64,000 nucleotides of DNA, taken from the NCBI GenBank assembly GCA_937880175.1, contig CALFLO010000176.1, positions 4,177 through 68,176 on the forward strand, read 5' to 3'. Below are positions 6,984-17,659 of this stretch, in pieces. Within the stretch, counting starts at the first letter, position 1. Every line of letters starts with the position of its first letter. Both the position numbers and the translations under genes were made by a program. The stretch comes from an uncultured Gluconobacter sp. (GTDB lineage: Bacteria > Pseudomonadota > Alphaproteobacteria > Acetobacterales > Acetobacteraceae). Under the pieces are notes generated by a model. It had not been told where the DNA came from and ran no database searches. It saw only the letters and a program-made list of their open reading frames with translations.

Positions 6984-7065
6984 GGAATAACTGCTCTCTT
7001 TTTGAGAACGGGAGGAGCGTTTTTATGGAGTATACGACCTTGAGGTGGTGTGAAACTATCCCGGG

Positions 7066-7082
7066 CAACAGGTGACCTGTTG
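7066..7082. promoter_or_regulatory. 17-bp perfect palindrome CAACAGGTgACCTGTTG followed by a T-run (operator or attenuator candidate)
   Basis: It lies in the divergent LysR / FAD-oxidoreductase intergenic region, 76 nt upstream of the ATG at 7158. Confidence 0.3.
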
Positions 7083-7157
7083 TTTTTGATGCGGAAAGAC
7101 ACTCCGGCGGCGTCCGGATGTTGTCCTGCCCGTTCCGGTTCTTTGGGATTTGACCAC

Positions 7158-8618
7158 ATGACATCCACCGTTTCTCCCGTCGATGCTCCGGCTATGGAGG
7201 CTTTGGCCGCGCTTTCGGGGCGCGTGCGGGAGGATCTGGCGAAAATCCGCTATGCGACGGGCAACTGGAGCCTGACGCAGGATCGGGACGGGGAAGCGGT
7301 TCTGGATGTGGCGATCATCGGCGCGGGACAGGGGGGCATCACGGCGTGCTTCGGTCTGCGCCGGCAGGGCGTGACCAATGTAGAAGTCTTTGAAAAGGCG
7401 TCCAAAGGCGGCGAAGGCCCGTGGGTGACGTTTGCGCGCATGATTACGCTGCGTACGCCCAAGCATGTAACCGGGCCGGATCTGGGGATTCCGAATCTGA
7501 CCCCACAGTCCTGGTTCGAGGCGCGGTATGGAGCGAAGGCCTGGGAGGATCTGGACAAGATTTCCCGCCATGACTGGCAGGCCTATCTGGACTGGGTGCG
7601 GCAGACGCTCGACATCCCGGTCGTGAACGATCAGGAACTGGTGCATGTGGGCTGGGATGACGGGCTGCTGCGGCTGACGTTCCGCAATGCGGCTGGTCAG
7701 GAAACGGTGCGTCTGGCGCGGCGGATGGTGCTGGCGACGGGCATCGAGGGTGGCGGGACGTGGCATGTGCCGTCCTTCATTTCCGACACGCTGCCGAAAT
7801 CCGTTTATGCGCACACGCATGAAGACATTGATTTCGCGTCGCTGAAGGGCAAGCGGATCGGTGTTCTGGGCGCGGGTGCGTCTGCATTCGACAATGCGGC
7901 AACGGCGTTGGAAAAGGGCGCCGGGCGGGTGGATCTGTGTCTGCGTCGGGCGAAAATCCCGGCCATCAATCCGTATCGCTGGATGGAAAATGCAGGCTTT
8001 CTTGCGCATTTCTCGGAACTGCCGGATCTGACGCGCTGGCGTTTCATGCGGCAGATCTACAGCCTGAACCAGCCGCCGCCGCAGGACACGTTCTGGCGCT
8101 GCCGCCGTCATGAAAACTTTGCCTTTCATCCCGGAACGCCTTGGACGGCGACGCGGATGGACGGAGACGAGATCGTGGTGACGACGCCGCAGGGTGAGAT
8201 GCGGTTTGATTTCCTGATCATCGGGACGGGGTTTTCGATTGATCTGTCACACCGGCCGGAAACGCGGGATTTTGCGTCTTCGGTTCTGCTGTGGAGCGAT
8301 CGTTTCACGCCGCCTTCCGGGGAAGACAGCGCGCTTCTGGGCAGCCATCCTTACCTGGGCGCGCGGTTCCAGTTTTTGCCGAAAGATGCGGCTGATCCCA
8401 AGGCCCCGATGCTGGCGGCGATCTACAATTTCACGTTCGGGGCCATGCCGAGCATGGGGCTTTCCGGCGCGTCCATCAGCGGGATGCGCTTTGGCGTGGA
8501 GAAGCTGGCGCGGGGCATTGCGCGCGATCTGTTCGTCGAGGACGGCGACAAACATCTGGCGAGCCTTCTGGCCTATGACACGGAAGAACTCGTCAGCCTC
8601 GATCCGCCGGCTCTTTGA
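7158..8618 (+). CDS. FAD/NAD(P)-binding oxidoreductase (two-dinucleotide-fold flavoprotein monooxygenase-like); first gene of the urate catabolism operon
   Basis: Two GxGxxG motifs (VAIIGAGQGG and IGVLGAGASAF). The ATG at 7158 (MTSTVSPVD) is preferred over the upstream track start at 7050. Its stop is 15 nt before puuE. Confidence 0.8.
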   Translation: MTSTVSPVDAPAMEALAALSGRVREDLAKIRYATGNWSLTQDRDGEAVLDVAIIGAGQGGITACFGLRRQGVTNVEVFEKASKGGEGPWVTFARMITLRTPKHVTGPDLGIPNLTPQSWFEARYGAKAWEDLDKISRHDWQAYLDWVRQTLDIPVVNDQELVHVGWDDGLLRLTFRNAAGQETVRLARRMVLATGIEGGGTWHVPSFISDTLPKSVYAHTHEDIDFASLKGKRIGVLGAGASAFDNAATALEKGAGRVDLCLRRAKIPAINPYRWMENAGFLAHFSELPDLTRWRFMRQIYSLNQPPPQDTFWRCRRHENFAFHPGTPWTATRMDGDEIVVTTPQGEMRFDFLIIGTGFSIDLSHRPETRDFASSVLLWSDRFTPPSGEDSALLGSHPYLGARFQFLPKDAADPKAPMLAAIYNFTFGAMPSMGLSGASISGMRFGVEKLARGIARDLFVEDGDKHLASLLAYDTEELVSLDPPAL

Positions 8619-8632
8619 GAAGGGACACGCCC

Positions 8633-9532
8633 ATGACGCAGGAAATCTATCCGCGGGACATGATCGGGTATGGCCGCACGCCGCCTGATGCGAAATGGCC
8701 GAACGGCGCGCGCATCGCCGTTCAGTTCGTCATCAATTACGAGGAAGGGGCGGAGAACTCGGTCCTGCATGGCGATGCGGGGTCTGAAGCGTTCCTGTCC
8801 GAAATGGTGGGCACGAAATCCATCATCGGGGCGCGCTGTGCGCAGATGGAGAGCCTGTACGAATATGGCAGCCGGGCCGGATTCTGGCGGTTGCGTCGTC
8901 TGTTTGACGAAGCCGGGATGCCGGTCACGGTATTTGGGGTGGCGAAGGCGCTGGCCCGCAATTCGGACGCTGTAGCGGCCATGAAGGAGAGTGGCTGGGA
9001 AATTGCGTCTCACGGTTTGCGCTGGATTGATTATCAGGATTTTCCCGAGGATGTGGAGCGGGCGCATATCCGCGAGGCCATTGCGCTGCATACCGAAGTC
9101 ACGGGAGAGCGGCCGCTTGGCTGGTATCAGGGGCGCACGAGCCCGAACACGGCGCGTCTGGTCGCGGAGGAAGGCGGGTTTGTTTACGACGCCGATTCCT
9201 ATGCGGATGATCTGCCATATTACGATCGCTCTAATGGCCGGGCGCAGCTGATCGTGCCCTATACGCTTGATGCGAATGACATGAAGTTCGCCGCGCTGAA
9301 CGGCTTTACGGAAGGCGAGCAGTTCTTCACCTATCTGCGTGATGCGTTTGACATGCTGTACCGCGAAGGCGGGAGGATGATGTCGATCGGGCTGCATTGC
9401 CGTCTGGCGGGCAAGCCGGCGCGGGCGCTGGGGCTGCTGAAGTTTCTGGAGCATATCCGCAAGCATGAGGATGTGTGGGTGGCGACGCGGCTGGATATCG
9501 CGCGGCACTGGCAGTCTGTGCATCCGGCATGA
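8633..9532 (+). CDS. puuE: allantoinase PuuE (polysaccharide deacetylase family)
   Basis: MTQEIYPRDMIGYGRTPPDAKWPNGARIAVQFVINYEEGAENSVLHGD is typical of PuuE. Its stop overlaps the uraD start (ATGA). Confidence 0.85.
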   Translation: MTQEIYPRDMIGYGRTPPDAKWPNGARIAVQFVINYEEGAENSVLHGDAGSEAFLSEMVGTKSIIGARCAQMESLYEYGSRAGFWRLRRLFDEAGMPVTVFGVAKALARNSDAVAAMKESGWEIASHGLRWIDYQDFPEDVERAHIREAIALHTEVTGERPLGWYQGRTSPNTARLVAEEGGFVYDADSYADDLPYYDRSNGRAQLIVPYTLDANDMKFAALNGFTEGEQFFTYLRDAFDMLYREGGRMMSIGLHCRLAGKPARALGLLKFLEHIRKHEDVWVATRLDIARHWQSVHPA

Positions 9533-10053
9533 AGATTTCTGACGTCAATGCGCTGTCGGATGAGGCGTTCGTTGCCCGGTTCGGCGGGCTTTACGAACAT
9601 TCGCCCTGGGTCGCGGAAGGGGCGCTGAAGGCGCGGCCTTTCGCGGATGTGGATGCGATGCTGTCTGCGTTTGCGCAGACTGTGCGCTCTGCGGGAGCAG
9701 AAGCGCAGCTTGCGCTGGTGCGGGCGCATCCGGAGCTTGGGCATCGGGCCGGGATTGATCCTGATCTGACGGACCATTCCGCATCAGAACAGGCTTCGGC
9801 CGGGCTGGACCGTCTGACACCTGCCGAATATGAGCGGTTCCGTGGGTTGAACGGCGCGTATCGCGCGCGGTTTTCCATGCCGTTCGTGATCTGCGTGCGC
9901 AAAGTGGCCGCCCCAGGAAAAGCTGCGAAAACCGTCATCATGGATGAAATGGAGCGCCGTCTGGCCGGTACTCCCGAAAAGGAACTGACCGAGGCGCTGA
10001 CGCAGATTGATGCGATTGCAGCACTTCGTCTGAAGGATCTGGTTACGTCATGA
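9529..10053 (+). CDS. uraD: OHCU (2-oxo-4-hydroxy-4-carboxy-5-ureidoimidazoline) decarboxylase
   Basis: FVARFGGLYEHSPWVAE ... LVRAHPELG motifs. It is translationally coupled to the genes on both sides. Confidence 0.85.
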   Translation: MKISDVNALSDEAFVARFGGLYEHSPWVAEGALKARPFADVDAMLSAFAQTVRSAGAEAQLALVRAHPELGHRAGIDPDLTDHSASEQASAGLDRLTPAEYERFRGLNGAYRARFSMPFVICVRKVAAPGKAAKTVIMDEMERRLAGTPEKELTEALTQIDAIAALRLKDLVTS

Positions 10054-10382
10054 GTTCTCTGTCCACGCATGTTCTCGATACGGTTTCCGGCAAGCCGGCC
10101 GCGGGTGTGAGCCTGCGCCTTCTGCAAGGGGAGCAGGTTCTGTTCGAAGGCCAGACGAATGCGGACGGGCGTTGCCCGGAACTGCGGGATGTTGCAGTTT
10201 CGAAAGGGACGTATTGTCTGGAGTTCCGGATTGGCGATTACTTCCGAAAAGGCGGGCAGGTTCTGTCCGATCCGCCGTTTCTGGATGTGGTGCCGATCGT
10301 GTTCGGACTGGCGGCGGAAGCCCATGCGCATGTGCCGCTGCTGGCGGCGCCGTTCGGATATTCCACCTATCGCGGAAGCTGA
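10050..10382 (+). CDS. uraH: 5-hydroxyisourate hydrolase (transthyretin-like)
   Basis: 110 aa. It opens with LSTHVLDTVSGKPAAGV and ends with the family signature YSTYRGS. Confidence 0.9.
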   Translation: MSSLSTHVLDTVSGKPAAGVSLRLLQGEQVLFEGQTNADGRCPELRDVAVSKGTYCLEFRIGDYFRKGGQVLSDPPFLDVVPIVFGLAAEAHAHVPLLAAPFGYSTYRGS

Positions 10383-10391
10383 GGGCTTTTC

Positions 10392-11795
10392 ATGACTGCC
10401 GAGAACGCCGCGACGACCGGTCTGCATCCCGTTGACGAGAAACTGCCGGTCTGGCGGCTTGGGGCCTACGGGTTGCAGCATGTGCTGGCGTTCTATTCGG
10501 CGGCGGTCATTGTCCCGATCCTCGTGGCCGGTGCGCTCCATCTGCCGCGTGAGACACTGATCCATCTGATCGATGCGGATCTGTTCACCTGTGGGATCGC
10601 CTCGCTGCTTCAGGCGGTGGGGTTTGGCCCGATCGGGGTTCGGTTGCCGCTGTTGCAGGGCGTGACGTTCACGGCTGTGGGGCCGATGATCGCCATCGGG
10701 TCTGCCGTAGGCGGTGGGACGCCGGGGCTTCTGTCCATTTATGGGTCCGTCATCGTGGCGGGGTTCGTGACGTTCCTGATGGCGCGGCATTTTGCCGGGC
10801 TAGTGCGGTTTTTTCCGCCGGTTGTGACGGGCTCCATCATTCTTATCATCGGTCTGGCGCTGTTGCCGGTGGCGGCGAATGACATTGTCTCGGGTGCCAG
10901 TCCGTCTGTGATGCAGGATCATGTTCCGCTGCGGAGCATCTGGTACGGGCTTGGGACACTGGCCTCCATTCTGGTGATTCAGCGGTTGTTTCGCGGGTTT
11001 ATTGCCACGATTGCCGTGTTGATCGGGCTGGTTCTGGGGACGCTGGTGGCCTGGGTGCTCGGGGATGCGAATTTCGGGGATGTGGCGTCCGCGCCGCTTT
11101 TGTCCATCACGCATCCGTTTTATTTCGGGACGCCGACATTCCATCCGGTTTCGATCCTGTCGATGGTGATCGTCATGACGATTTCCATGATCGAGACGAT
11201 CGGGAACGTCTATGCGACGGGTGAAATCGTCGACAAGCCGATCACCTCCGAAGACATTGCCCGCACGCTGCGTGCCGATGGGATCGCGACCATGCTCGGC
11301 GGTGTGCTCAACTCATTTCCCTATACGTGTTTTGCCGAAAATGTTGGTCTGGTGCGGATGACGGGGGTGAAGAGCCGCTGGGTTGTTGCGGCGGCGGCGG
11401 TCATCATGATGATGCTCGGCTGTCTGCCGCGTCTGGGTGCGCTGGTGGCTGCGGTGCCGCTGCCGGTTCTGGGGGGGGCAGCGCTGGCGATGTTCGCGAC
11501 TGTGGCGGTCGTGGGTGTGCAGACGCTGTCACGGGTGGATTTCAACCGGCAGAGCAATGTGATTATTGTGGGGACCAGCATCGGGCTGAGCATGCTGGCG
11601 ACGGCCCAGCCGCATATCTCCGACACGTTTCCGATGTGGGCGAAGATCGTGTTTGGCAGCGGAATTACGCTCGGATCGCTGTCAGCGATTTTGCTGCATC
11701 TGATCTTCAACGTGAAGCGGACGATCCACGAGGCGGCTCATGCGACGGATGTGCCGCGTGAGGCGCTGATTGACGAGCGGATCCGGGAAGGGTGA
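10392..11795 (+). CDS. nucleobase:cation symporter-2 (xanthine/uric acid permease family)
   Basis: 467 aa with about 12-14 TM segments and NCS2-like motifs (LQGVTFTAVGPMI, FAENVGLVRMTGV). It is the last gene of the urate operon. Confidence 0.9.
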   Translation: MTAENAATTGLHPVDEKLPVWRLGAYGLQHVLAFYSAAVIVPILVAGALHLPRETLIHLIDADLFTCGIASLLQAVGFGPIGVRLPLLQGVTFTAVGPMIAIGSAVGGGTPGLLSIYGSVIVAGFVTFLMARHFAGLVRFFPPVVTGSIILIIGLALLPVAANDIVSGASPSVMQDHVPLRSIWYGLGTLASILVIQRLFRGFIATIAVLIGLVLGTLVAWVLGDANFGDVASAPLLSITHPFYFGTPTFHPVSILSMVIVMTISMIETIGNVYATGEIVDKPITSEDIARTLRADGIATMLGGVLNSFPYTCFAENVGLVRMTGVKSRWVVAAAAVIMMMLGCLPRLGALVAAVPLPVLGGAALAMFATVAVVGVQTLSRVDFNRQSNVIIVGTSIGLSMLATAQPHISDTFPMWAKIVFGSGITLGSLSAILLHLIFNVKRTIHEAAHATDVPREALIDERIREG

Positions 11796-11859
11796 GGCTC
11801 AGGGCCCTGCCCTGAAACCCACCAAAGGTCGGTGGCCTGTGGAAACCAATTCATAAAAT

Positions 11860-11906
11860 CAGGGTGCAGGGATCAAGATCCCTGCCGGGCCCGGGCAGAG
11901 CCCGGA
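11860..11906 (+). repeat. 47-nt REP-like palindromic intergenic element, copy 1
   Basis: CAGGGTGCAGGGATCAAGATCCCTGCCGGGCCCGGGCAGAGCCCGGA. Its reverse complement recurs at 53326-53372 with a single mismatch. It contains two hairpins and sits between convergent genes. Confidence 0.8.
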
Positions 11907-11914
11907 ACGTCACG

Positions 11915-12901
11915 TCAGAACCCAGTCTGTCCGGAAAAATAGAAGCCGGTCTGGTTCTTGTACGTCGCAATCGTACCCAGTGACACATAAGCCAGCGTCA
12001 CGTTCAGGTGCTTGTTCACGAAATAGCTGGTGTAGACGTCGAACCAGTTGCTTTCGTCCGTGAAGCGCTGGTTGCGTGGCTTGGTGCGGTATTCGACACC
12101 GACGACCAGTCCGGGGATGAAGGACGGTAGATAGCCGAGCGAGCCTTCGAACTGGGCGTGATAGTTGTTGTCCTGATCCCCGCCAAAGCCGAGGATGCCC
12201 CACTGGTTGCCCTTGGTAAAGCGGACAGTGGTGTCGATCAGGATACCGATCTTCGGGAACAGCTTGGTCACGGCGAGATAGGCGTCTCCGCCATCGGTAT
12301 GTTTTGAGCCAACCATGTGGATGACGCGGCCGTCACTGTCATGCTTGTACATGCCGCCGATGGCGACCTGCGGGATCAGGGTATTGTCGGCGATGTGGCC
12401 AAAGAGGCGGACCTTCGCACCTGCCACGTCCAGATCGAACTGGTAACCATTGCCGATGCCGAGTTTTGCGCCGGTGCCGCGGGTCTGGAAGAAGTTGTGA
12501 GTGTAGGAAATCTCGACGCGGTCAAAGAAGCCCATCGAGGCGCCGACATTCTGGTCCCAGTAACTGGTGAGGTTCACATAGCTGTAGTGCAGGGCCATGC
12601 CGGCGCTTTTATTGGAGCCATAACCGCCAATGGTCGCCCAGCTTGCGATGCCCCCGCCGCTTGCCCCTTCGAGTGAGGACAGGCCGCTGGTACCCAGAGC
12701 GCGCTGCCCGTCAAAGAGGGTACGGAACATCGACTGCCCGTTATTGTTTCCATCATTGCCCAGTGTGACCTGAGGTCCGCTGGCCGTACTGCTGTCGGCT
12801 GCGTGTGCGGTCTGTCCTGCGGCGAGGGTGCCGAAGGACAGGAGTGCCGTCAGGGACATCAGGGAACGGAGGGACTGCGCGGGATATGGAAAACGGTGCA
12901 T
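11915..12901 (-). CDS. outer-membrane beta-barrel protein, DUF3034-like
   Basis: It has a signal peptide ending AHA. The GGGIASWATIGGYG and FDRVEISYTH motifs match what I recall for DUF3034. Alternating beta-strand pattern, terminal F. Confidence 0.7.
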   Translation of the reverse strand: MHRFPYPAQSLRSLMSLTALLSFGTLAAGQTAHAADSSTASGPQVTLGNDGNNNGQSMFRTLFDGQRALGTSGLSSLEGASGGGIASWATIGGYGSNKSAGMALHYSYVNLTSYWDQNVGASMGFFDRVEISYTHNFFQTRGTGAKLGIGNGYQFDLDVAGAKVRLFGHIADNTLIPQVAIGGMYKHDSDGRVIHMVGSKHTDGGDAYLAVTKLFPKIGILIDTTVRFTKGNQWGILGFGGDQDNNYHAQFEGSLGYLPSFIPGLVVGVEYRTKPRNQRFTDESNWFDVYTSYFVNKHLNVTLAYVSLGTIATYKNQTGFYFSGQTGF

Positions 12902-13089
12902 GATGCCTGCTTCTAAGTCGCGAGCCCGAGGGTGAGCCGGAGCATTCTCGCAGATTAAATACCGTGTTCAGTATTAGCGCTGCGATTCTGAAAAATAATT
13001 AAGATAACCCTAGAGTTCAAAAATTTTTCCGTGTCAAAACAAAAATGGCACTTAGTGTCTATTTTTGAAGTGGGTGTGTTCCTTTGGCT

Positions 13090-14406
13090 TCAGGCAACGC
13101 TTCGGGTGTGCAGGCGCTGTCCGGCGACATAGGTGGCGACGATGCTGCGATCGTCACCGAGCATGGTGAGGGCGAAGAGGCGGTCGGCGAGTGTTTCGGC
13201 AGTCCGGGCACGAATTTTGCCAAGAGGCGTGGCGGCGGGATCAAAGACGCAGAGATCGGCGTAGAGACCGGGTCTGATGCTGCCGATTCGGTCTTTGAGT
13301 CCGAGGGATTGTGCGCCCCCGGCCGTGGCGAGCCAGAGCCCCTGCGCGGGATGGAGTTTCGTCTGAAGGCCCTGCGCGACCTTGTAGGCATCGGACAGGA
13401 CCTGGAGCAGGGACAGGGATGGCCCGGCGCCGATGTCGCTGCCAATGCCCACATGGACGCGGCGTGCGGGATCGAGGGCCTTGAAAAGCGGGAAGGATCC
13501 GCTGCCCAGAAACTGGTTCGAGCCGGGGCAGTGCGCGATGGAGCAGCCCGTGTCGTGGCAGCGCTGGAAATCGGCTTCTTCGGCATGGACGGCATGAGCG
13601 AGAATGGCGCGCGGACGTATCAGACCGGCCTTGTCATACACGTCCAGATAGGAGCTGCGGTCGGGGAAGAGCTCGCGGACCCAGGCGATTTCGGACCGGT
13701 TTTCGAGCAGATGGGTCTGCATGAACAGGTCAGGCTTCGTGGCCAGAAGTGCGCCGGCGAGATCGAGCTGTTCGGGCGTGCTGGTAGGGGCGAAGCGTGG
13801 GGTCACGGCATAAAGCTGCCGTCCACGGTTGTGCCAGCGGGCGATGAGTTCGGCGGACTGGTCGTAGCCACTCTGGGCGGTGTCGCGCAGGTTATCGGGG
13901 GCATTGCGGTCCATCAGGACCTTGCCCGCAATCATGCAGGTATTGAGGCGCTCGGATTCCTCGAAGAAGGCATCCACGGACTGGGGGTGAACGGTGCAGT
14001 ACACGGCGGCCGTGGTGGTGCCGACGCGCAGGAGTTCACCCAGGAACTGGCGGGCGACGGCCCGGGCATAGGGGATGTCGGCGTAGCGGGCTTCGGCGGG
14101 AAAGACGTAGTTTTCCAGCCATTGCAGAAGCTGCTCGCCGTAAGACGCAATGACCGGAAGCTGCGGATAATGGATATGCGTGTCGATCATGCCGGCGGAA
14201 ATCAGCATGTCGGGGTAGTGGTCGATCGGTGTTCCGGCAGGGATGGTCTCACGGAGACTGTCCCACGAGCCCGCGGCGGTAATGCGGCCGTTTGCGGTCA
14301 GGATCAGGCCATCGGGCTCGTGATGCAGGGCGTCCATGGGATCGGTGGTGAACGGATCGGCATGGAAGGTCAGGTAGGGGCCGCGGATGGCTCGGATCTG
14401 GGTCAT
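13090..14406 (-). CDS. guaD: guanine deaminase
   Basis: 438 aa amidohydrolase. Motifs IRGPYLTFHADPF, AGMIDTHIHYPQ and HCPGSN match the guanine deaminase pattern. Confidence 0.9.
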   Translation of the reverse strand: MTQIRAIRGPYLTFHADPFTTDPMDALHHEPDGLILTANGRITAAGSWDSLRETIPAGTPIDHYPDMLISAGMIDTHIHYPQLPVIASYGEQLLQWLENYVFPAEARYADIPYARAVARQFLGELLRVGTTTAAVYCTVHPQSVDAFFEESERLNTCMIAGKVLMDRNAPDNLRDTAQSGYDQSAELIARWHNRGRQLYAVTPRFAPTSTPEQLDLAGALLATKPDLFMQTHLLENRSEIAWVRELFPDRSSYLDVYDKAGLIRPRAILAHAVHAEEADFQRCHDTGCSIAHCPGSNQFLGSGSFPLFKALDPARRVHVGIGSDIGAGPSLSLLQVLSDAYKVAQGLQTKLHPAQGLWLATAGGAQSLGLKDRIGSIRPGLYADLCVFDPAATPLGKIRARTAETLADRLFALTMLGDDRSIVATYVAGQRLHTRSVA

Positions 14407-14555: not shown

Positions 14556-15971
14556 ATGACGTCGAATGATCCTGTTGCGCTCGATGTGCCGGAAGGGCTT
14601 GCCGTTTCCGTGGAGGGCAGAATGAGCGGTACGGCTGCCGTGCCGGTTCCGGATCCAGCGGATGTGACGGGCTCTGGTACGGGCGGGAACGACGGCTCGG
14701 CGTCTGCTGCGTCTGTCGGGATTGAGGGGCCTTATCTTCCGCCACCGCGTGTGCTGGTTCTGGAAGGCGCGCGCGGCGTGCGGTTCGACTTCAATGACGG
14801 CGCGCGCGTCATGGTGCCGTCGCTGGAGCAGGAGGGCGCACAGTGGCATGTGCGGCTTTCGGATCATGTGACCGGGAATGTGCTGTTCGATGCGCGCCTG
14901 AAGGGCGGCACGGTGGCGTCCACCAAGAAGTTCTTTGTACCGTTCCGGGTGGATGTCTGGCTCGAACAGCCGGGGGAGACGCCGGAACATGTGCTCCATC
15001 ATGATCTGGCGCTGTCAGGGCGGCCGGTTCTGGTGCAGCTTCCGGTGGGGACGCTGGGCGATACGCTGGCCTGGCTGCCTGCTGTGCGGCGTCTGGCGCA
15101 GGAGAGCGGGGCACAGGTGACATGCTCGGTTTCCGAAGCGATCCTGCCGCTCGTATCAGGGGCCAACCCGGAACTGACGCTGGTGGGGCATGACCGCATG
15201 AAGGCGGATGCGGGTTTTACGGCCCGGTTCTATGCGAGCTACAATATCGGGCTGTTCTTTACGGATAAGGATCATACGCGCCAGCCAACGGATTTCCGGC
15301 ATGTCGGTCTGCACCGCACGGCGGCTTATATTCTGGGTGTGGATCCGTGGAACGATACGCCACCGGGTATTTCCATCCCCGATGGCGAAACGCCTCCTGT
15401 CGCGGAGCCCTATGTGGTCATCGCCACGCAGGCCAGCACGCAATGTAAGTACTGGAACAATCCGGGGGGCTGGCATGAAGTGATCGCGTTTCTGAAGACG
15501 GCGGGATATCGCGTCATCTGCATTGACCAGAAGCCGTTTCATGGCACCGGATATGTCTATAACCACATCCCCCACGGAGCCGAAGACCAGACCGGCAGCC
15601 GCCCGCTGGTGGAGCGTGCGCGGTGGCTGAAGCATGCGAGTTTCTTCATCGGTCTGTCGAGCGGTCTGGCCTGGCTGGCCCATGCGACCGGGACGCCGGT
15701 CGTGATGATTTCAGGGTTTACGCATCCGGATAACGAGTTCGCCACGCCCTACCGGGTCATCAACTGGCACACCTGCAATTCCTGCTGGAACGATCCGGCG
15801 TTCCAGTTCGATCACAAGGACTTCTTCTGGTGCCCGAGACACAAGGGCACGGACCGGCAGTTCGAGTGTTCGCGCCTGATTACCGGGACGCAGGTCATTC
15901 ACACCATCAGGCGGCTGATGACGGACCGCGGTCTTTCTGGTGCGGAGCATGGCGCGCCCGGAACTGTGTGA
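14556..15971 (+). CDS. TibC/Aah-family autotransporter strand-loop-strand O-heptosyltransferase (BAHT)
   Basis: It appears collinear with E. coli TibC/Aah as I recall them: FDFNDGARV, WHVRL, KKFFVPFRV, RPVLVQLPVGTLGDTLAW, FRHVGLHRTAAYILGVDP, EPYVVIATQAST..KYWNNPGGW, HASFFIGLSSGLAWLA. The C-terminal Fe-site cysteines are CNSC...WCPRHKGTDRQFEC. It carries an extra N-terminal Gly/Ser/Ala-rich segment of about 65 aa. Confidence 0.85.
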   Translation: MTSNDPVALDVPEGLAVSVEGRMSGTAAVPVPDPADVTGSGTGGNDGSASAASVGIEGPYLPPPRVLVLEGARGVRFDFNDGARVMVPSLEQEGAQWHVRLSDHVTGNVLFDARLKGGTVASTKKFFVPFRVDVWLEQPGETPEHVLHHDLALSGRPVLVQLPVGTLGDTLAWLPAVRRLAQESGAQVTCSVSEAILPLVSGANPELTLVGHDRMKADAGFTARFYASYNIGLFFTDKDHTRQPTDFRHVGLHRTAAYILGVDPWNDTPPGISIPDGETPPVAEPYVVIATQASTQCKYWNNPGGWHEVIAFLKTAGYRVICIDQKPFHGTGYVYNHIPHGAEDQTGSRPLVERARWLKHASFFIGLSSGLAWLAHATGTPVVMISGFTHPDNEFATPYRVINWHTCNSCWNDPAFQFDHKDFFWCPRHKGTDRQFECSRLITGTQVIHTIRRLMTDRGLSGAEHGAPGTV

Positions 15972-17184
15972 GCAGGGCTTCGACCAGGCTGCAGGCATAG
16001 ACCACCAGAGCCAGATCCATCACGAGCAGGATGCGTTTGCTGGAAACATAGATCGTCGGGGACAGGCCTGTCAGGAGCGTTACGCCGAACCCGCCTGCCA
16101 GAAAGGACAGGATGGTGGTGGCATTTTTGAGGGACAGGGCGCACCACAGGACGGAGACGATCATGCACAGCGTCAGGAAAAATGCGACATAGGTGTTCAG
16201 GTACACCCAGTTCAGATCATAGATGAACCGGTCGCAGCGCAGGGCTGTGAGCGTTTTCTGGATGCCCGGACTGACAGGCAGCATGAGCAGGATGCTCAGG
16301 AGCATCACGCCTGAGGCCGCCATGTCCTGAAAGCCCCGGTTGCGTTTGACGAAAGCGATAAAGCAGAGGGACAGGAGCAGGGTTGCAAGCAGGATGTCAT
16401 TGTCCGTGCTTATGCAGGCGCTATGGATGCGATCGATGGCCAGCGAGAATTTCTGCAGGGTGTCGAACTGGGGAAACTCAGGCAGCCAGTTGTTGATTTC
16501 CGCGATGTAACGGCGAGCATTGCCGGGGGCGGCCAGAACAATGGCGGACATGACAGTGGCAACCGTCAGATAAAGACCGCTGTAGAGAGAAATGGTCCGG
16601 CGTCGAACGGTGGCGACCGCCGTGCAGAAAAGAAGAAGCAGCGAGGACTGTTCGATCGAGCAGCCAACGGGAAGGGCCCCGAGAGAGAGGATGCGCAGGG
16701 TTTTGCCTGCGTCATTCTGCCGCAGAAAGACGCTGATGGAGAAGAAGGCAAAGGAAATCGGGAAGAGGTAATTGTAGAAGCCTGAGAGCCAGTACACCGA
16801 CTCTTTGGACACTTCATACGGCAGCAGCAGGAAAAGCCCCATGACCAGCGGGATACCGATGCCGGGCCTCAGAGCAGGGCGCAGGGTGCAGGACCAGATG
16901 GCATAGGCCAGAAGAACGGCACAGAACGGGATAAGAGTCCGCCAGAAGGCAGGATACTGGATGGTTTCAGCCAGTGCCCCTTCGATGACGATCCTGCCCG
17001 ACCAGGTCATGTAGCGGGTGTGGAGAAAGGACAGCAGGCCCGTATGATCGAGGGCATGGCGGAATATGTCGTTGTCGATGAAGATCGACGTGTTGATCCG
17101 GGTGTTCATCCAGACTGCCGCGATCAGGAGAAACGCGAGGAACGGACTGTTCCTGAGGATCATCGGCTTAAAAGCGGCAGGCAT
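15907..17184 (-). CDS. polytopic (about 12 TM) membrane protein, possible GT-C-type glycosyltransferase
   Basis: 425 aa and very hydrophobic. The motif near the N-terminus (HTRYMTWSGRIVIEG) resembles GT-C/DUF6056-like proteins. Its 3' end overlaps the convergent BAHT gene by 65 nt, and its start overlaps the upstream gene by 17 nt (alternative ATG at 17163). Confidence 0.7.
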   Translation of the reverse strand: MPAAFKPMILRNSPFLAFLLIAAVWMNTRINTSIFIDNDIFRHALDHTGLLSFLHTRYMTWSGRIVIEGALAETIQYPAFWRTLIPFCAVLLAYAIWSCTLRPALRPGIGIPLVMGLFLLLPYEVSKESVYWLSGFYNYLFPISFAFFSISVFLRQNDAGKTLRILSLGALPVGCSIEQSSLLLLFCTAVATVRRRTISLYSGLYLTVATVMSAIVLAAPGNARRYIAEINNWLPEFPQFDTLQKFSLAIDRIHSACISTDNDILLATLLLSLCFIAFVKRNRGFQDMAASGVMLLSILLMLPVSPGIQKTLTALRCDRFIYDLNWVYLNTYVAFFLTLCMIVSVLWCALSLKNATTILSFLAGGFGVTLLTGLSPTIYVSSKRILLVMDLALVVYACSLVEALLTQFRARHAPHQKDRGPSSAA

Positions 17185-17659
17185 GGGAGATCCTGTAGAG
17201 CCTGTGTCCTGAAATGATGTTCAGGTGAATGGTTTCTTCCGGAATCATGCCGGAGGGCTTTCTGGCGGTTCCAATAAAGCCGTATCGGTTATGGAACGGA
17301 TTTGCCTGCGTGTGGAAAATCCGTGCGATATCGGGCCTTTCCGTGAGCCTGTAGGGGATGGAGAATTCCTTCTCACCGTCTCCCATGGTGAGGATCAGCG
17401 GGGCTCCGTCGCCGGACCAGAGGTCTGAGTGGACCCAGCCGGAAACGGAAACCGTGTTCCCGGTGATGTGGCAGTTTTCCACAACGGCTTTCAGGGACGG
17501 GTCATCTGCGGGCGTGAAACCCTCCGGATGGAAGGGGCGGTGTGTCGTCCAAGCGTAACCGCAGGCCAGTGTCAGGAGAAGCGACAGTATTATTCCGGCA
17601 AGGAAGAAATATTTTCTCAGAAGCCGGAGCATCTGATCCATTGCGGGAGGCTGTTTCAT
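17168..17659 (-). CDS. bitopic membrane protein with a periplasmic beta-sandwich-like domain (unknown function)
   Basis: 163 aa with a single TM (YFFLAGIILSLLLTLACGYAW). The motif VSGWV...ERPDIARIF...GF is seen in accessory domains of glycosylation enzymes. It is translationally coupled to the downstream membrane protein gene. Confidence 0.6.
   Translation of the reverse strand: MKQPPAMDQMLRLLRKYFFLAGIILSLLLTLACGYAWTTHRPFHPEGFTPADDPSLKAVVENCHITGNTVSVSGWVHSDLWSGDGAPLILTMGDGEKEFSIPYRLTERPDIARIFHTQANPFHNRYGFIGTARKPSGMIPEETIHLNIISGHRLYRISHACRF

What the first reader, a model, noticed from the sequence alone, without database searches (positions are those of the whole stretch)
14556..15971. Orphan TibC/Aah-type autotransporter heptosyltransferase with no autotransporter nearby
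The 471-aa product matches, block for block, the iron-containing bacterial autotransporter heptosyltransferases (E. coli TibC and Aah), including the C-terminal CxxC...WCPRHK...FEC metal site. Those enzymes use ADP-heptose in the cytoplasm to O-glycosylate Ser residues on strand-loop-strand motifs of AIDA-I/TibA-type passenger beta-helices. They are normally encoded next to their substrate. Here no gene in 64 kb encodes an autotransporter beta-barrel. The neighbours are guaD and a convergent polytopic membrane protein. The enzyme also has an extra Gly/Ser/Ala-rich N-terminus of about 65 aa. The only beta-helix-like, passenger-like protein in the window is the Hint-domain protein at 27715-30792. 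I hypothesise that it, or another non-autotransporter surface protein, is the substrate. That would extend BAHT-type protein heptosylation to a new substrate class in a non-pathogenic acetic acid bacterium.
Basis: partly seen in the sequence, partly recalled or inferred. Interest (0 to 1): 0.7.

Follow-up and report, generated by a model that had tools for sequence, protein, structure and literature searches.

The report
Orphan heptosyltransferase; probable Hint-protein substrates
This Gluconobacter gene is a genuine, intact TibC/Aah-type protein heptosyltransferase with no autotransporter nearby, and in related bacteria its relatives sit directly beside large self-cleaving "Hint-domain" proteins, so these are probably its real, undescribed substrates.

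Summary
ORF 14556-15971 (+) is a full-length BAHT: TIGR04414 565.6 bits (cut-off 200) and E=1.8e-119 to the TibC crystal structure. The catalytic Asp, the ADP-heptose contacts and all four iron-finger cysteines are conserved. No ORF in the 64 kb has an autotransporter barrel or a strand-loop-strand (SLS) repeat.

Being "orphan" is not unusual. The gene occupies this slot throughout Gluconobacter and sister genera, PGAP already names it, and trans-acting BAHTs are known.

Of 57 other alphaproteobacterial BAHT loci, 17 have a Hint_2 protein within 1.5 kb, often 4 bp away. Nineteen have SLS proteins without a detected barrel, and none has a barrel. All 7 Burkholderiaceae loci have classical autotransporters. 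All four acetic-acid-bacterial plasmid copies also adjoin Hint proteins.

The window's Hint protein (27715-30792) shares their Hint_2 + C-terminal cassette. Its 54%-identical Acetobacter pomorum homologue lies directly upstream of a BAHT.

Caveats: it lacks canonical SLS repeats, other homologues are unlinked, and nothing is shown biochemically. I found no paper linking the two families.

Verdict: ordinary family member, with a probable new non-autotransporter substrate class.

The parts
14556..15971 (+). BAHT gene: TibC/Aah-family protein O-heptosyltransferase, 471 aa
   Evidence: TIGR04414 565.6 bits against cut-off 200. Pfam TibC_1st plus GT9. TibC 4rap E=1.8e-119. It is 90-91% identical to G. 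oxydans and G. potus proteins that NCBI names 'autotransporter strand-loop-strand O-heptosyltransferase'.
14556..14750 (+). Variable low-complexity N-terminal tail of the BAHT (aa 1-65), absent from TibC
   Evidence: The TibC alignment begins at query residue 60. Composition is G10 S7 A8 P9 V8 of 65 residues. Most homologues cover only about 87% of the query. Alphaproteobacterial homologues all carry unrelated tails of similar length.
14766..14963 (+). N-terminal beta-barrel domain of the BAHT (TibC_1st, aa 71-136)
   Evidence: PF21129, 86.2 bits, E=1.6e-24.
15060..15062 (+). Codon for Asp169, equivalent to the TibC catalytic base Asp110
   Evidence: PVGTLGD169 aligns with TibC PTGTLGD110. It is invariant in 13 homologues. 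The role of Asp110 is taken from PMC4358343.
15774..15869 (+). Iron-finger motif: Cys407, Cys410, Cys426, Cys438
   Evidence: These align with TibC Cys339/342/358/370. All four are invariant in alignment A1.
27715..30792 (+). Candidate substrate: a 1025-aa Hint_2 protein. The true start is probably the TTG at 27730, giving 1020 aa. It has two tandem modules of about 320 aa, then a Hint_2 domain, then a conserved C-terminal domain.
   Evidence: Pfam Hint_2 110.9 bits at aa 680-819. P0121 is a 100%-identical 1020-aa database protein. It is 54% identical over its full length to the A. pomorum protein next to a BAHT. No Sec-type signal peptide is visible by inspection.
27781..29754 (+). Two tandem N-terminal modules (aa 23-334 and 361-680), 61% identical to each other, predicted all-beta and solenoid-like
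   Evidence: Internal BLASTP gives 61% identity over 321 aa, E=6e-129. In the AlphaFold model these blocks mostly have pLDDT 75-92 and consist of short strands. Foldseek matches the Candida glabrata Awp1/Awp3b adhesin A-domain at E=2.5e-3, prob 1.0. There are 47 short inter-strand loops, 17 of them containing Ser. No SLS-repeat hit was found.
29752..30171 (+). Hint_2 (bacterial intein-like) domain with invariant Cys681 at its start and T761-x-x-H764
   Evidence: Pfam PF13403. Foldseek matches BIL domains 6y75 and 2lwy and mini-inteins at prob 1.0. C681, T761 and H764 are invariant in 26 homologues.
30190..30786 (+). Conserved C-terminal domain (aa 826-1024) of unknown function. It is shared with BAHT-adjacent Hint proteins.
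   Evidence: A local HMM finds this domain after the Hint domain in BAHT-adjacent proteins of L028, L029, L033, L056, L066, L083 and L009. It is also present in all six plasmid Hint proteins, whose Hint+CTD region is 43-55% identical to the window's over about 335-420 aa.

Best explanation
**What the gene is.** The gene at 14556-15971 encodes a functional, iron-finger-containing BAHT. It is a cytoplasmic GT-B enzyme that transfers heptose from ADP-heptose onto Ser/Thr in inter-strand loops of folded beta-helical proteins. This mechanism is established for TibC/AAH and is inferred here from complete conservation of the catalytic and assembly residues.

**Where it sits.** It is the vertically inherited chromosomal copy of the Gluconobacter / Neokomagataea / Swingsia lineage. 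It lies immediately upstream of trhO, with guaD on the other side only in Gluconobacter. It acts in trans.

**Most likely substrates.** These are not type V autotransporters. They are members of a family of large proteins without a visible signal peptide. The family has a variable beta-solenoid N-terminal region, a Hint_2 (bacterial intein-like) autoprocessing domain, and a conserved C-terminal domain of about 190 aa. The protein at 27715-30792, 11.7 kb downstream, is the only such protein in the window and is a good candidate.

**Steps inferred only.** Heptosylation would occur before export. The Hint domain, through Cys681, would then cleave off or transfer the glycosylated N-terminal region.
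For: **Enzyme intact.**
- Family scores are strong and the TibC alignment is near full-length.
- Asp169, Ser294 (TibC Thr226), Lys298, Arg354, Trp373 and Cys407/410/426/438 are present, as are the thumb and cluster residues Tyr333, Val334 and Phe436.
- The residue roles come from PMC4358343.

**Conserved locus.** The BAHT keeps the same position immediately upstream of trhO across Gluconobacter, Neokomagataea and Swingsia, with guaD on the other side in Gluconobacter only.

**Context in relatives.**
- Of 57 non-Gluconobacter-clade alphaproteobacterial loci, 17 have a Hint_2 protein within 1.5 kb. Many of these have gaps from -4 to +34 bp on the same strand.
- Three more loci have a Hint protein in the same contiguous cluster.
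- No locus in this set has an autotransporter barrel, whereas 7 of 7 Burkholderiaceae loci have one.
- Canonical SLS repeats are fused to Hint_2 in L011 (TIGR04415 205 bits, 16 repeats) and in many other loci.

**Plasmids.**
- G. oxydans H24 and G. sphaericus have BAHT followed 4 bp later by a Hint protein.
- A. oryzoeni has BAHT followed 5 bp later by a Hint protein, plus a second Hint gene.
- N. tanensis has Hint-Hint-BAHT.

**Within the orphan clade.** The N. tanensis plasmid copy (71% identical to the window's BAHT) and the Gluconobacter sp. Dm-62 orthologue both have adjacent Hint genes. The sister lineage Asaia has one 2.8 kb downstream.

**Link to the window's own Hint protein.**
- Its A. 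pomorum homologue (54% identical, 1025 aa) ends 218 bp upstream of a BAHT.
- It shares the Hint+CTD cassette with BAHT-adjacent proteins.
- Its predicted beta-solenoid modules have Ser-containing short loops.
- The gyrA(-)/Hint(+) pair lies about 10 kb from BAHT-trhO in G. morbifer as well.
Against: - There is no biochemical evidence of any kind.
- The window's Hint protein has no detectable canonical SLS repeat. NCBIfam gives no hit at E<=1, and the local SLS HMM gives only one sub-threshold fragment.
- Homologues of it in another Acetobacter, in Kozakia and in A. oryzifermentans are not next to a BAHT.
- G. frateurii retains the BAHT but has a methyltransferase, not a Hint gene, beside gyrA.
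- No hit to the N-terminal module carries a G. cerinus, G. frateurii, Neokomagataea or Swingsia name. This particular protein therefore cannot be the only reason the BAHT is kept.
- The 11.7-kb linkage may simply reflect genus-level synteny.
- The rest of the genome could not be searched for autotransporters or for ADP-heptose biosynthesis genes.
- An A. pasteurianus metabolic reconstruction reports two missing steps towards ADP-L,D-heptose (PMC6915089).
- The N. tanensis plasmid BAHT is frameshifted before the fourth cysteine.
- The Hint-protein model has only moderate confidence (mean pLDDT 73).
Confidence: 0.6

Rival explanations
1. The substrate is a classical AIDA/TibA/Ag43-type autotransporter encoded elsewhere in the Gluconobacter genome. 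The BAHT would act on it in trans, as Aah/TibC do on Ag43.
For: This is the only experimentally established substrate class. Trans-acting BAHTs are documented (PMC8151025). The enzyme is about 50% identical to TibC, with an identical active site. Burkholderiaceae relatives at about 56-59% identity all sit next to autotransporters.
Against: No autotransporter barrel was found next to any of 73 alphaproteobacterial BAHT loci or the 4 plasmid loci examined. Pfam found no PF03797 in the C-termini of seven alphaproteobacterial SLS neighbours tested. There is none in this 64-kb window. The few papers that mention both Gluconobacter and autotransporters were not opened. None of this is a whole-genome test.
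Confidence: 0.12
2. The BAHT does modify Hint_2-family or other SLS-type non-autotransporter proteins, but not the one at 27715-30792. Its real targets would be other Hint proteins with SLS-like N-termini encoded elsewhere on the chromosome or on plasmids.
For: The window's Hint protein lacks canonical SLS repeats. Its N-terminal module family has a narrower distribution than the BAHT. Gluconobacter genomes carry other Hint proteins with SLS-like N-termini. One example is L023, a 644-aa protein next to the BAHT orthologue, whose N-terminus is 37% identical to an SLS repeat protein. Others are the plasmid proteins with motifs such as 'VVLSGGEYSGTGS...VVSSGG'.
Against: The A. pomorum homologue of exactly this protein type is adjacent to a BAHT. 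Several other BAHT-adjacent Hint proteins also lack HMM-detectable SLS repeats, namely the second Hint protein of L030, L033, L083, G. oxydans H24 and G. sphaericus. BAHTs recognise a structural motif, not a sequence.
Confidence: 0.22
3. The chromosomal BAHT is a functionless remnant or has a non-protein acceptor such as LPS or a polysaccharide. The association with Hint genes would then be coincidental co-mobilisation.
For: There is weak similarity of the GT9 domain to LPS heptosyltransferases (RfaQ 30 bits, WaaC 23 bits). The orphan position is next to unrelated housekeeping genes.
Against: The gene is intact and 66-91% conserved across a whole clade of genera, with every catalytic, donor-binding and oligomerisation residue retained. 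LPS heptosyltransferase models score far below their cut-offs, 185 to 467 bits. BAHT-Hint gaps of 4 bp recur in many independent lineages, which argues for co-translation rather than chance.
Confidence: 0.05

Closest known systems
TibC/TibA (ETEC) and AAH/AIDA-I (DAEC): the founding BAHT-autotransporter pairs
   Same: Same enzyme family and domain order: N-terminal beta-barrel, GT-B catalytic domain, beta-hairpin thumb and Cys4 iron finger. About 50% identity to TibC. The catalytic Asp and ADP-heptose contacts are conserved. Position 368 is Ser, as in AAH Ser294, not Pro as in TibC Pro300. The paper shows that a Ser at this position permits use of both ADP-D,D- and ADP-L,D-heptose.
   Different: There is no adjacent substrate gene and no autotransporter in 64 kb. 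The host is a non-pathogenic acetic acid bacterium. The enzyme has an extra low-complexity N-terminal tail of about 50-65 aa. In its closest relatives that have a neighbouring partner, the partner is a Hint_2 protein rather than a T5SS protein.
BAHT-Hint_2 gene pairs of Acetobacteraceae (G. oxydans H24 plasmid B932_3783/3782; G. sphaericus pSJF2-b; A. oryzoeni plasmid; Rhodopila and other MAGs). Annotated, but as far as I could find not described.
   Same: The BAHT paralogues are 55-62% identical to the window's. The partner proteins share the Hint_2 + C-terminal cassette with the window's Hint protein at 43-55% identity.
   Different: In those pairs the two genes are operonic, with gaps from -4 to +130 bp. 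In the window they are 11.7 kb apart with genes on both strands between them. Many partner proteins carry canonical SLS repeats, which the window's protein lacks.
Bacterial intein-like (BIL) / Hint domains in secreted, variable bacterial proteins and polymorphic toxins
   Same: The Hint_2 domain of the candidate substrate matches BIL and mini-intein structures at prob 1.0. It keeps the N-terminal Cys and the TxxH block.
   Different: The region after the Hint domain is a conserved domain of about 190 aa, not a variable toxin tip. The connection with a dedicated glycosyltransferase was not found in the literature I searched.
HMW1C/HMW1A-type cytoplasmic glycosylation of two-partner-secretion adhesins
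   Same: The logic is analogous: a cytoplasmic glycosyltransferase encoded with, and modifying, a large beta-helical exoprotein before export (review PMC8151025).
   Different: It is an unrelated enzyme family with different chemistry (N-linked hexose on Asn). Its substrates are type Vb proteins with signal peptides.

Membership tests
BAHT (TIGR04414, TibC/Aah O-heptosyltransferase) | Whole-protein score above the curated equivalog cut-off | tested here: met
   565.6 bits against cut-off 200, model positions 3-374 of 374.
BAHT (TIGR04414, TibC/Aah O-heptosyltransferase) | N-terminal beta-barrel domain followed by a GT-B (GT9-like) catalytic domain | tested here: met
   PF21129 TibC_1st 86.2 bits at aa 71-136. 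PF01075 37.6 bits at aa 282-415. Near full-length alignment to TibC 4rap.
BAHT (TIGR04414, TibC/Aah O-heptosyltransferase) | Catalytic base Asp110 and ADP-heptose contacts Thr226, Lys230, Arg286, Trp305 (TibC numbering) | tested here: met
   Asp169, Ser294 (conservative for Thr), Lys298, Arg354 and Trp373. Invariant or nearly invariant in 13 homologues. Residue roles from PMC4358343.
BAHT (TIGR04414, TibC/Aah O-heptosyltransferase) | Iron-finger: four Fe-coordinating cysteines (TibC 339, 342, 358, 370) | tested here: met
   Cys407, 410, 426 and 438 are aligned and invariant.
BAHT (TIGR04414, TibC/Aah O-heptosyltransferase) | Beta-hairpin thumb and hydrophobic cluster needed for the dodecamer (TibC Phe265, Val266, Phe368) | tested here: met
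   Tyr333, Val334 and Phe436 lie at the aligned positions. Oligomeric state itself was not tested.
BAHT (TIGR04414, TibC/Aah O-heptosyltransferase) | Heptosyltransferase activity with ADP-heptose, and iron binding | not testable with these tools
   Needs biochemistry. Availability of ADP-heptose in this organism was also not checked, because the whole genome is not available.
BAHT-autotransporter gene pair (aah-aidA, tibC-tibA type) | A gene for a classical autotransporter (PF03797 barrel with an SLS passenger) adjacent to or near the BAHT | tested here: not met
   No PF03797 hit in the window's 23 largest plausible ORFs. No hit from local barrel or SLS HMMs on all ORFs of at least 120 aa. None within +/-10 kb in 16 orthologous loci.
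SLS-repeat BAHT substrate (TIGR04415 / Pfam AIDA), applied to the Hint protein at 27715-30792 | Tandem 19-residue strand-loop-strand repeats detectable by the family model | tested here: not met
   No NCBIfam hit at E<=1. No Pfam AIDA hit at E<=1. The local SLS HMM gives one fragment at -2.1 bits. For comparison, the BAHT-adjacent L011 proteins score 505.9 and 205 bits.
Beta-helical fold with short Ser-bearing inter-strand loops (the structural motif BAHTs are reported to recognise), applied to the Hint protein's N-terminus | Beta-solenoid architecture with strand, short loop, strand elements that contain Ser | tested here: inconclusive
   The AlphaFold model is all-beta with short strands and module pLDDT mostly 75-92. 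The best structural match is a fungal beta-helix adhesin domain, E=2.5e-3, TM 0.47. Autotransporter passengers match only weakly, at prob 0.1-0.35. Of 47 short loops, 17 contain Ser.
Hint_2 / bacterial intein-like domain, applied to aa 680-819 of the candidate substrate | Hint fold with an N-terminal nucleophile and a TxxH block | tested here: met
   PF13403 110.9 bits against cut-off 28.4. Foldseek matches BIL and mini-intein structures at prob 1.0. Cys681, Thr761 and His764 are invariant in 26 sequences. Autoprocessing itself was not tested.

The most novel reading that the evidence does not exclude
BAHT + Hint_2 gene pairs define an undescribed, widespread alphaproteobacterial glycoprotein system. 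In it, a TibC-like dodecameric heptosyltransferase would heptosylate, in the cytoplasm, the beta-solenoid N-terminal regions of large proteins without signal peptides. These proteins are not type V autotransporters. They carry a bacterial intein-like domain that would then cleave or transfer the glycosylated region during or after export. In Gluconobacter the chromosomal 'orphan' BAHT would serve several such Hint proteins in trans. These would include the one at 27715-30792, which lacks the canonical 19-residue acceptor repeat. That would show that BAHT recognition is truly structural rather than sequence-based.
Probability: 0.45. Interest if true: 0.75.

Novelty: new variant of a known kind. 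Interest (0 to 1): 0.6.

Why it matters
Protein O-heptosylation by BAHTs has been studied only as a virulence-associated modification of type V autotransporter adhesins in enterobacteria and Burkholderia.

The genomic association found here would have several consequences if it is functional:
- The family would have a second major substrate class, Hint/BIL-domain exoproteins. RTX-type SLS proteins may be a third class.
- These substrates occur in free-living and insect- or plant-associated Alphaproteobacteria.
- It would give a first functional handle on the abundant but uncharacterised "Hint domain-containing proteins" of Acetobacteraceae.
- It would link glycosylation to intein-like autoprocessing.
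[quoted passage not shown] (PMC8151025)

The test is easy, because E. coli supplies ADP-heptose and the readout is a +192 Da ladder.

Tried and rejected
**DUF6056 protein and its 163-aa partner as functional partners of the BAHT: rejected.** The cassette is present only in the window, G. oxydans and G. potus, where it is disrupted. It is absent from Gluconobacter sp. P1C6_b, G. vitians, G. roseus, G. frateurii, Neokomagataea and Swingsia. In those genomes trhO directly follows the BAHT. The DUF6056 protein has no PDB sequence relative.

**Canonical SLS repeats in the window's Hint protein: none found**.

**Adjacency of the window-type Hint protein to a BAHT in other genomes.** It was found only in A. 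pomorum and not in three other look-ups.

**Distribution of the SLS-like N-terminus of the Gluconobacter sp. Dm-62 Hint protein.** The family is too small and variable to be informative, with 13 hits.

**Literature.** These searches gave nothing relevant or no hits:
- 'Hint domain' + 'heptosyltransferase' returned 0 papers.
- 'bacterial intein-like' + 'autotransporter' gave nothing relevant by title and abstract; the seven papers were not opened.
- 'Gluconobacter' + 'autotransporter' returned five papers, which were not opened.
- Hint domain-containing proteins in acetic acid bacteria gave nothing relevant.
- A search on 'heptosylation' and 'TibC' was swamped by clinical 'TIBC' papers.
- Lu et al. 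2014 (PMID 25211077) is not held in the library.

**Not possible with these tools.** I could not scan the whole genome for PF03797, TIGR04415, PF13403 or ADP-heptose pathway genes.

**Tree support.** Bootstrap values were computed but not displayed. Clade statements therefore rest on NJ topology and on percent identities.
Full report
**1. The observation**

The ORF at 14556-15971 (+) encodes 471 aa.
- NCBIfam's equivalog model TIGR04414 (hepto_Aah_TibC) scores 565.6 bits against a cut-off of 200, covering the whole model.
- Pfam finds the TibC N-terminal beta-barrel at aa 71-136 and a GT9 domain.
- phmmer against PDB sequences finds only TibC (4rap/4rb4), at E=1.8e-119 over aa 60-461.

I mapped the residues that Yao et al. 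(PMC4358343) showed to be essential in TibC:

| TibC residue | Role | Window protein |
|---|---|---|
| Asp110 | catalytic base | Asp169 |
| Thr226, Lys230, Arg286, Trp305 | donor contacts | Ser294, Lys298, Arg354, Trp373 |
| Cys339, 342, 358, 370 | iron finger | Cys407, 410, 426, 438 |
| Phe265, Val266, Phe368 | dodecamer thumb and cluster | Tyr333, Val334, Phe436 |

Position 368 is Ser, as in AAH Ser294, not Pro as in TibC. In the paper, a Ser at this position lets the enzyme use both ADP-D,D- and ADP-L,D-heptose.

The N-terminal tail of about 50-65 residues is real, low-complexity, and conserved only in the G. oxydans group. Other alphaproteobacterial homologues have unrelated tails of similar length.

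The neighbours are guaD and a convergent DUF6056 membrane protein. The 3' end of the DUF6056 gene overlaps the BAHT gene by 65 bp.

No autotransporter barrel or SLS repeat exists in any plausible ORF of the window.

**2. Organism and local synteny**

The protein is 90-91% identical to G. oxydans and G. potus proteins that NCBI already names "autotransporter strand-loop-strand O-heptosyltransferase".

The gene occupies a fixed slot immediately upstream of trhO (UPF0176/rhodanese). This holds in Gluconobacter, Neokomagataea and Swingsia. None of these has an autotransporter, SLS protein or, with one exception, a Hint protein within 10 kb.

The DUF6056 gene and the overlapping 163-aa gene are an insertion between the BAHT and trhO. 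The insertion is confined to the window, G. oxydans and G. potus, where it is disrupted. It is not a conserved partner.

"Orphan" BAHTs are also frequent elsewhere. Twenty-one of the 57 other alphaproteobacterial loci have no candidate within 1.5 kb. [quoted passage not shown]

**3. What sits next to BAHTs in relatives**

Two look-ups gave the lead.
- In a Rhodopila MAG, the BAHT is followed 127 bp later by a 1466-aa Hint_2 protein.
- In another alphaproteobacterial MAG, it is followed by a 1477-aa protein with 30 TIGR04415 repeats. Next comes a 1533-aa protein with 16 such repeats fused to Hint_2 and a GT1 domain.

I spent the single genome-contig scan on a BAHT alignment. It confirmed 559 relatives and kept 80 loci. 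I annotated those loci with local HMMs for Hint, the 19-residue SLS repeat, the autotransporter barrel and the post-Hint C-terminal domain.

Classification by what lies within 1.5 kb of the BAHT:

| Group | Loci | Hint_2 protein | SLS protein, no Hint, no barrel | Autotransporter | Nothing |
|---|---|---|---|---|---|
| Gluconobacter-type clade | 16 | 1 | 0 | 0 | 15 |
| Burkholderiaceae | 7 | 0 | 0 | 7 | 0 |
| Other Alphaproteobacteria | 57 | 17 | 19 | 0 | 21 |

Points on the "other Alphaproteobacteria" row:
- Hint_2 proteins usually carry SLS repeats and usually lie downstream on the same strand.
- Gaps of -4 to +34 bp occur in L029, L032, L039, L045, L047, L056, L059, L067 and L083.
- Three further loci (L036, L055, L087) have the Hint protein later in the same contiguous cluster.
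- Some SLS-only proteins are cut by contig ends, so their C-termini are unknown.

A Pfam scan of ten C-termini confirmed the pattern:
- PF03797 was found in all three Burkholderiaceae proteins tested.
- No PF03797 was found in the seven alphaproteobacterial SLS proteins.
- Two of those seven have RTX repeats and one has a PATR repeat.

**4. Plasmids of acetic acid bacteria**

A tblastn search of the BAHT against PLSDB found four acetic-acid-bacterial plasmids among 220 records. All four have Hint genes adjacent.
- G. oxydans H24: BAHT, a 4-bp gap, then an 807-aa "outer membrane protein". That protein is Hint+CTD by my HMMs.
- G. sphaericus: BAHT, a 4-bp gap, then an 808-aa Hint protein.
- A. 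oryzoeni: a divergent Hint gene, then BAHT, a 5-bp gap, then a second Hint gene.
- N. tanensis: Hint, Hint, BAHT.

The modules are flanked by IS elements. The N. tanensis BAHT is 71% identical to the window's. It groups with the chromosomal Neokomagataea orthologue inside the "orphan" clade, but it is frameshifted before the fourth cysteine.

Gluconobacter sp. Dm-62's chromosomal orthologue has a divergent 644-aa Hint protein 1 kb upstream. The N-terminus of that protein is 37% identical to an annotated SLS repeat protein. The sister lineage Asaia has a Hint gene 2.8 kb downstream.

**5. The window's own Hint protein**

Layout of the protein at 27715-30792 (+):
- Its likely start is the TTG at 27730.
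- Two tandem modules are 61% identical to each other.
- A Hint_2 domain spans aa 680-819.
- A C-terminal domain of about 200 aa follows.

The AlphaFold model has mean pLDDT 73, with the modules mostly at 75-92. It is made of short beta strands. Foldseek results:
- The Hint domain matches BIL domains and mini-inteins at prob 1.0.
- The N-terminal modules match the beta-helix adhesin A-domains of Candida glabrata Awp1/Awp3b at E=2.5e-3.
- Autotransporter passengers (Ag43, SepA, Hbp, IgA1 protease) match only weakly.

Cys681 and the T761-x-x-H764 block are invariant. N-terminal autocleavage is therefore plausible, though this is inference.

The N-terminal module family is confined to Gluconobacter, Acetobacter and Kozakia, with 33 clusters.

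For a link to the BAHT:
- Its A. pomorum homologue (54% identical, also 1025 aa) ends 218 bp upstream of a BAHT on the same strand.
- Its Hint+CTD cassette is the same as that of BAHT-adjacent proteins.
- The gyrA/Hint pair lies about 10 kb from BAHT-trhO in G. morbifer too.
- It has 17 Ser-containing short inter-strand loops.

Against a link:
- It has no canonical SLS repeats.
- Three other homologues are not near a BAHT.
- G. frateurii keeps the BAHT without a Hint gene beside gyrA.

**6. Interpretation**

Shown:
- The gene is an intact BAHT.
- It is orphan in a conserved chromosomal slot.
- BAHT genes are recurrently operonic with Hint_2 proteins across Alphaproteobacteria and on Gluconobacter plasmids.
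- They were not found next to autotransporters there.

Inferred:
- The enzyme acts in trans on Hint_2-family beta-solenoid proteins, probably including the one in the window.
- Heptosylation precedes export. These proteins show no Sec signal peptide by inspection.
- The Hint domain later processes the protein.

My confidence that the substrates are Hint-family proteins is about 0.6. For this particular Hint protein it is about 0.4. A classical autotransporter elsewhere in the genome cannot be excluded without the full genome; I put that at about 0.12.

**7. Novelty**

The gene itself is a routinely annotated member of a known family. The BAHT-Hint_2 association is visible in public annotations but appears in none of the papers I could search. 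That library is incomplete, and the founding Cell Host & Microbe paper is not held.

I rate this a new variant of a known kind, with interest 0.6.

Noticed in passing
window 15907-17659 (-): A two-gene cassette is inserted between the BAHT and trhO. It consists of a DUF6056 polytopic membrane protein (425 aa) and an overlapping 163-aa membrane-anchored protein. It is found only in the G. oxydans / G. potus subclade. Its 3' end overlaps the BAHT gene by 65 bp. No PDB or NCBIfam relative was found, so its function is unknown.
   Followed up: partly
L001:6995-21036 and L040:6828-11248: A different BAHT arrangement occurs in a 'G. oxydans' assembly (L001) and in Gluconobacter sp. Dm-62 (L040). Two divergent BAHT paralogues are present in both. 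In L001, the only one of the two with gene calls, they flank a CCP_MauG cytochrome c peroxidase gene and lie directly beside a type II secretion / pseudopilin cluster. No SLS, Hint or autotransporter gene is nearby. This raises the possibility of yet another substrate type.
   Followed up: no
L011:15764-20365: A single 1533-aa protein combines 16 SLS repeats, a Hint_2 domain and a C-terminal GT1 glycosyltransferase domain (PEP-CTERM/XrtA-system-like). It is encoded two genes downstream of a BAHT. L045 and L079 have similar tails of about 720 aa after the Hint domain.
   Followed up: partly
L062:11673-15836 and L080:11407-16839: These BAHT-adjacent SLS proteins in Stellaceae and Acetobacteraceae MAGs end in RTX calcium-binding repeats. 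That suggests type I secretion substrates, which would be another non-autotransporter class next to BAHTs.
   Followed up: partly
L097:9944-11155: The Neokomagataea tanensis plasmid BAHT is frameshifted just after WCPRHKG. The annotated product therefore lacks the fourth iron-finger cysteine. The remaining C-terminus is readable in another frame. This is either a sequencing error or a recent pseudogene.
   Followed up: yes
window 27781-29754: The Hint protein's N-terminal region is an internal tandem duplication: two modules of about 320 aa, 61% identical. The region is very rich in Asn, Thr, Gly and Ser (11.8, 11.8, 11.6 and 9.3%), almost free of Lys and Arg, and free of Cys.
   Followed up: yes
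window 7050-14406: The BAHT lies at the edge of a purine and urate catabolism cluster. Within the window, Pfam/NCBIfam identified a flavin monooxygenase-like protein (7050-8615), a xanthine/uracil permease (10392-11792), a DUF3034 protein (11918-12901) and guaD (13093-14406). The polysaccharide-deacetylase-like, OHCU decarboxylase and transthyretin-like HIU hydrolase genes are inferred from the syntenic loci L003 and L005 and were not scanned in the window. The cluster is syntenic in G. oxydans and G. frateurii and has no evident functional link to the BAHT.
   Followed up: no
window about 24000: GC skew is consistently positive (+0.09 to +0.20) from 1 to 24 kb. From about 24 kb onward, near gyrA, it varies between -0.06 and +0.16, and it stays near zero from about 42 kb. 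I did not examine whether this marks a replication landmark or only a change in gene orientation.
   Followed up: no
L071:51-1154 (-): In one alphaproteobacterial MAG, an ORF whose N-terminus looks like the kinase domain of HldE (ADP-heptose synthase; '...VLVVGDAMLD') lies about 9 kb from an orphan BAHT. This was judged by eye only.
   Followed up: no
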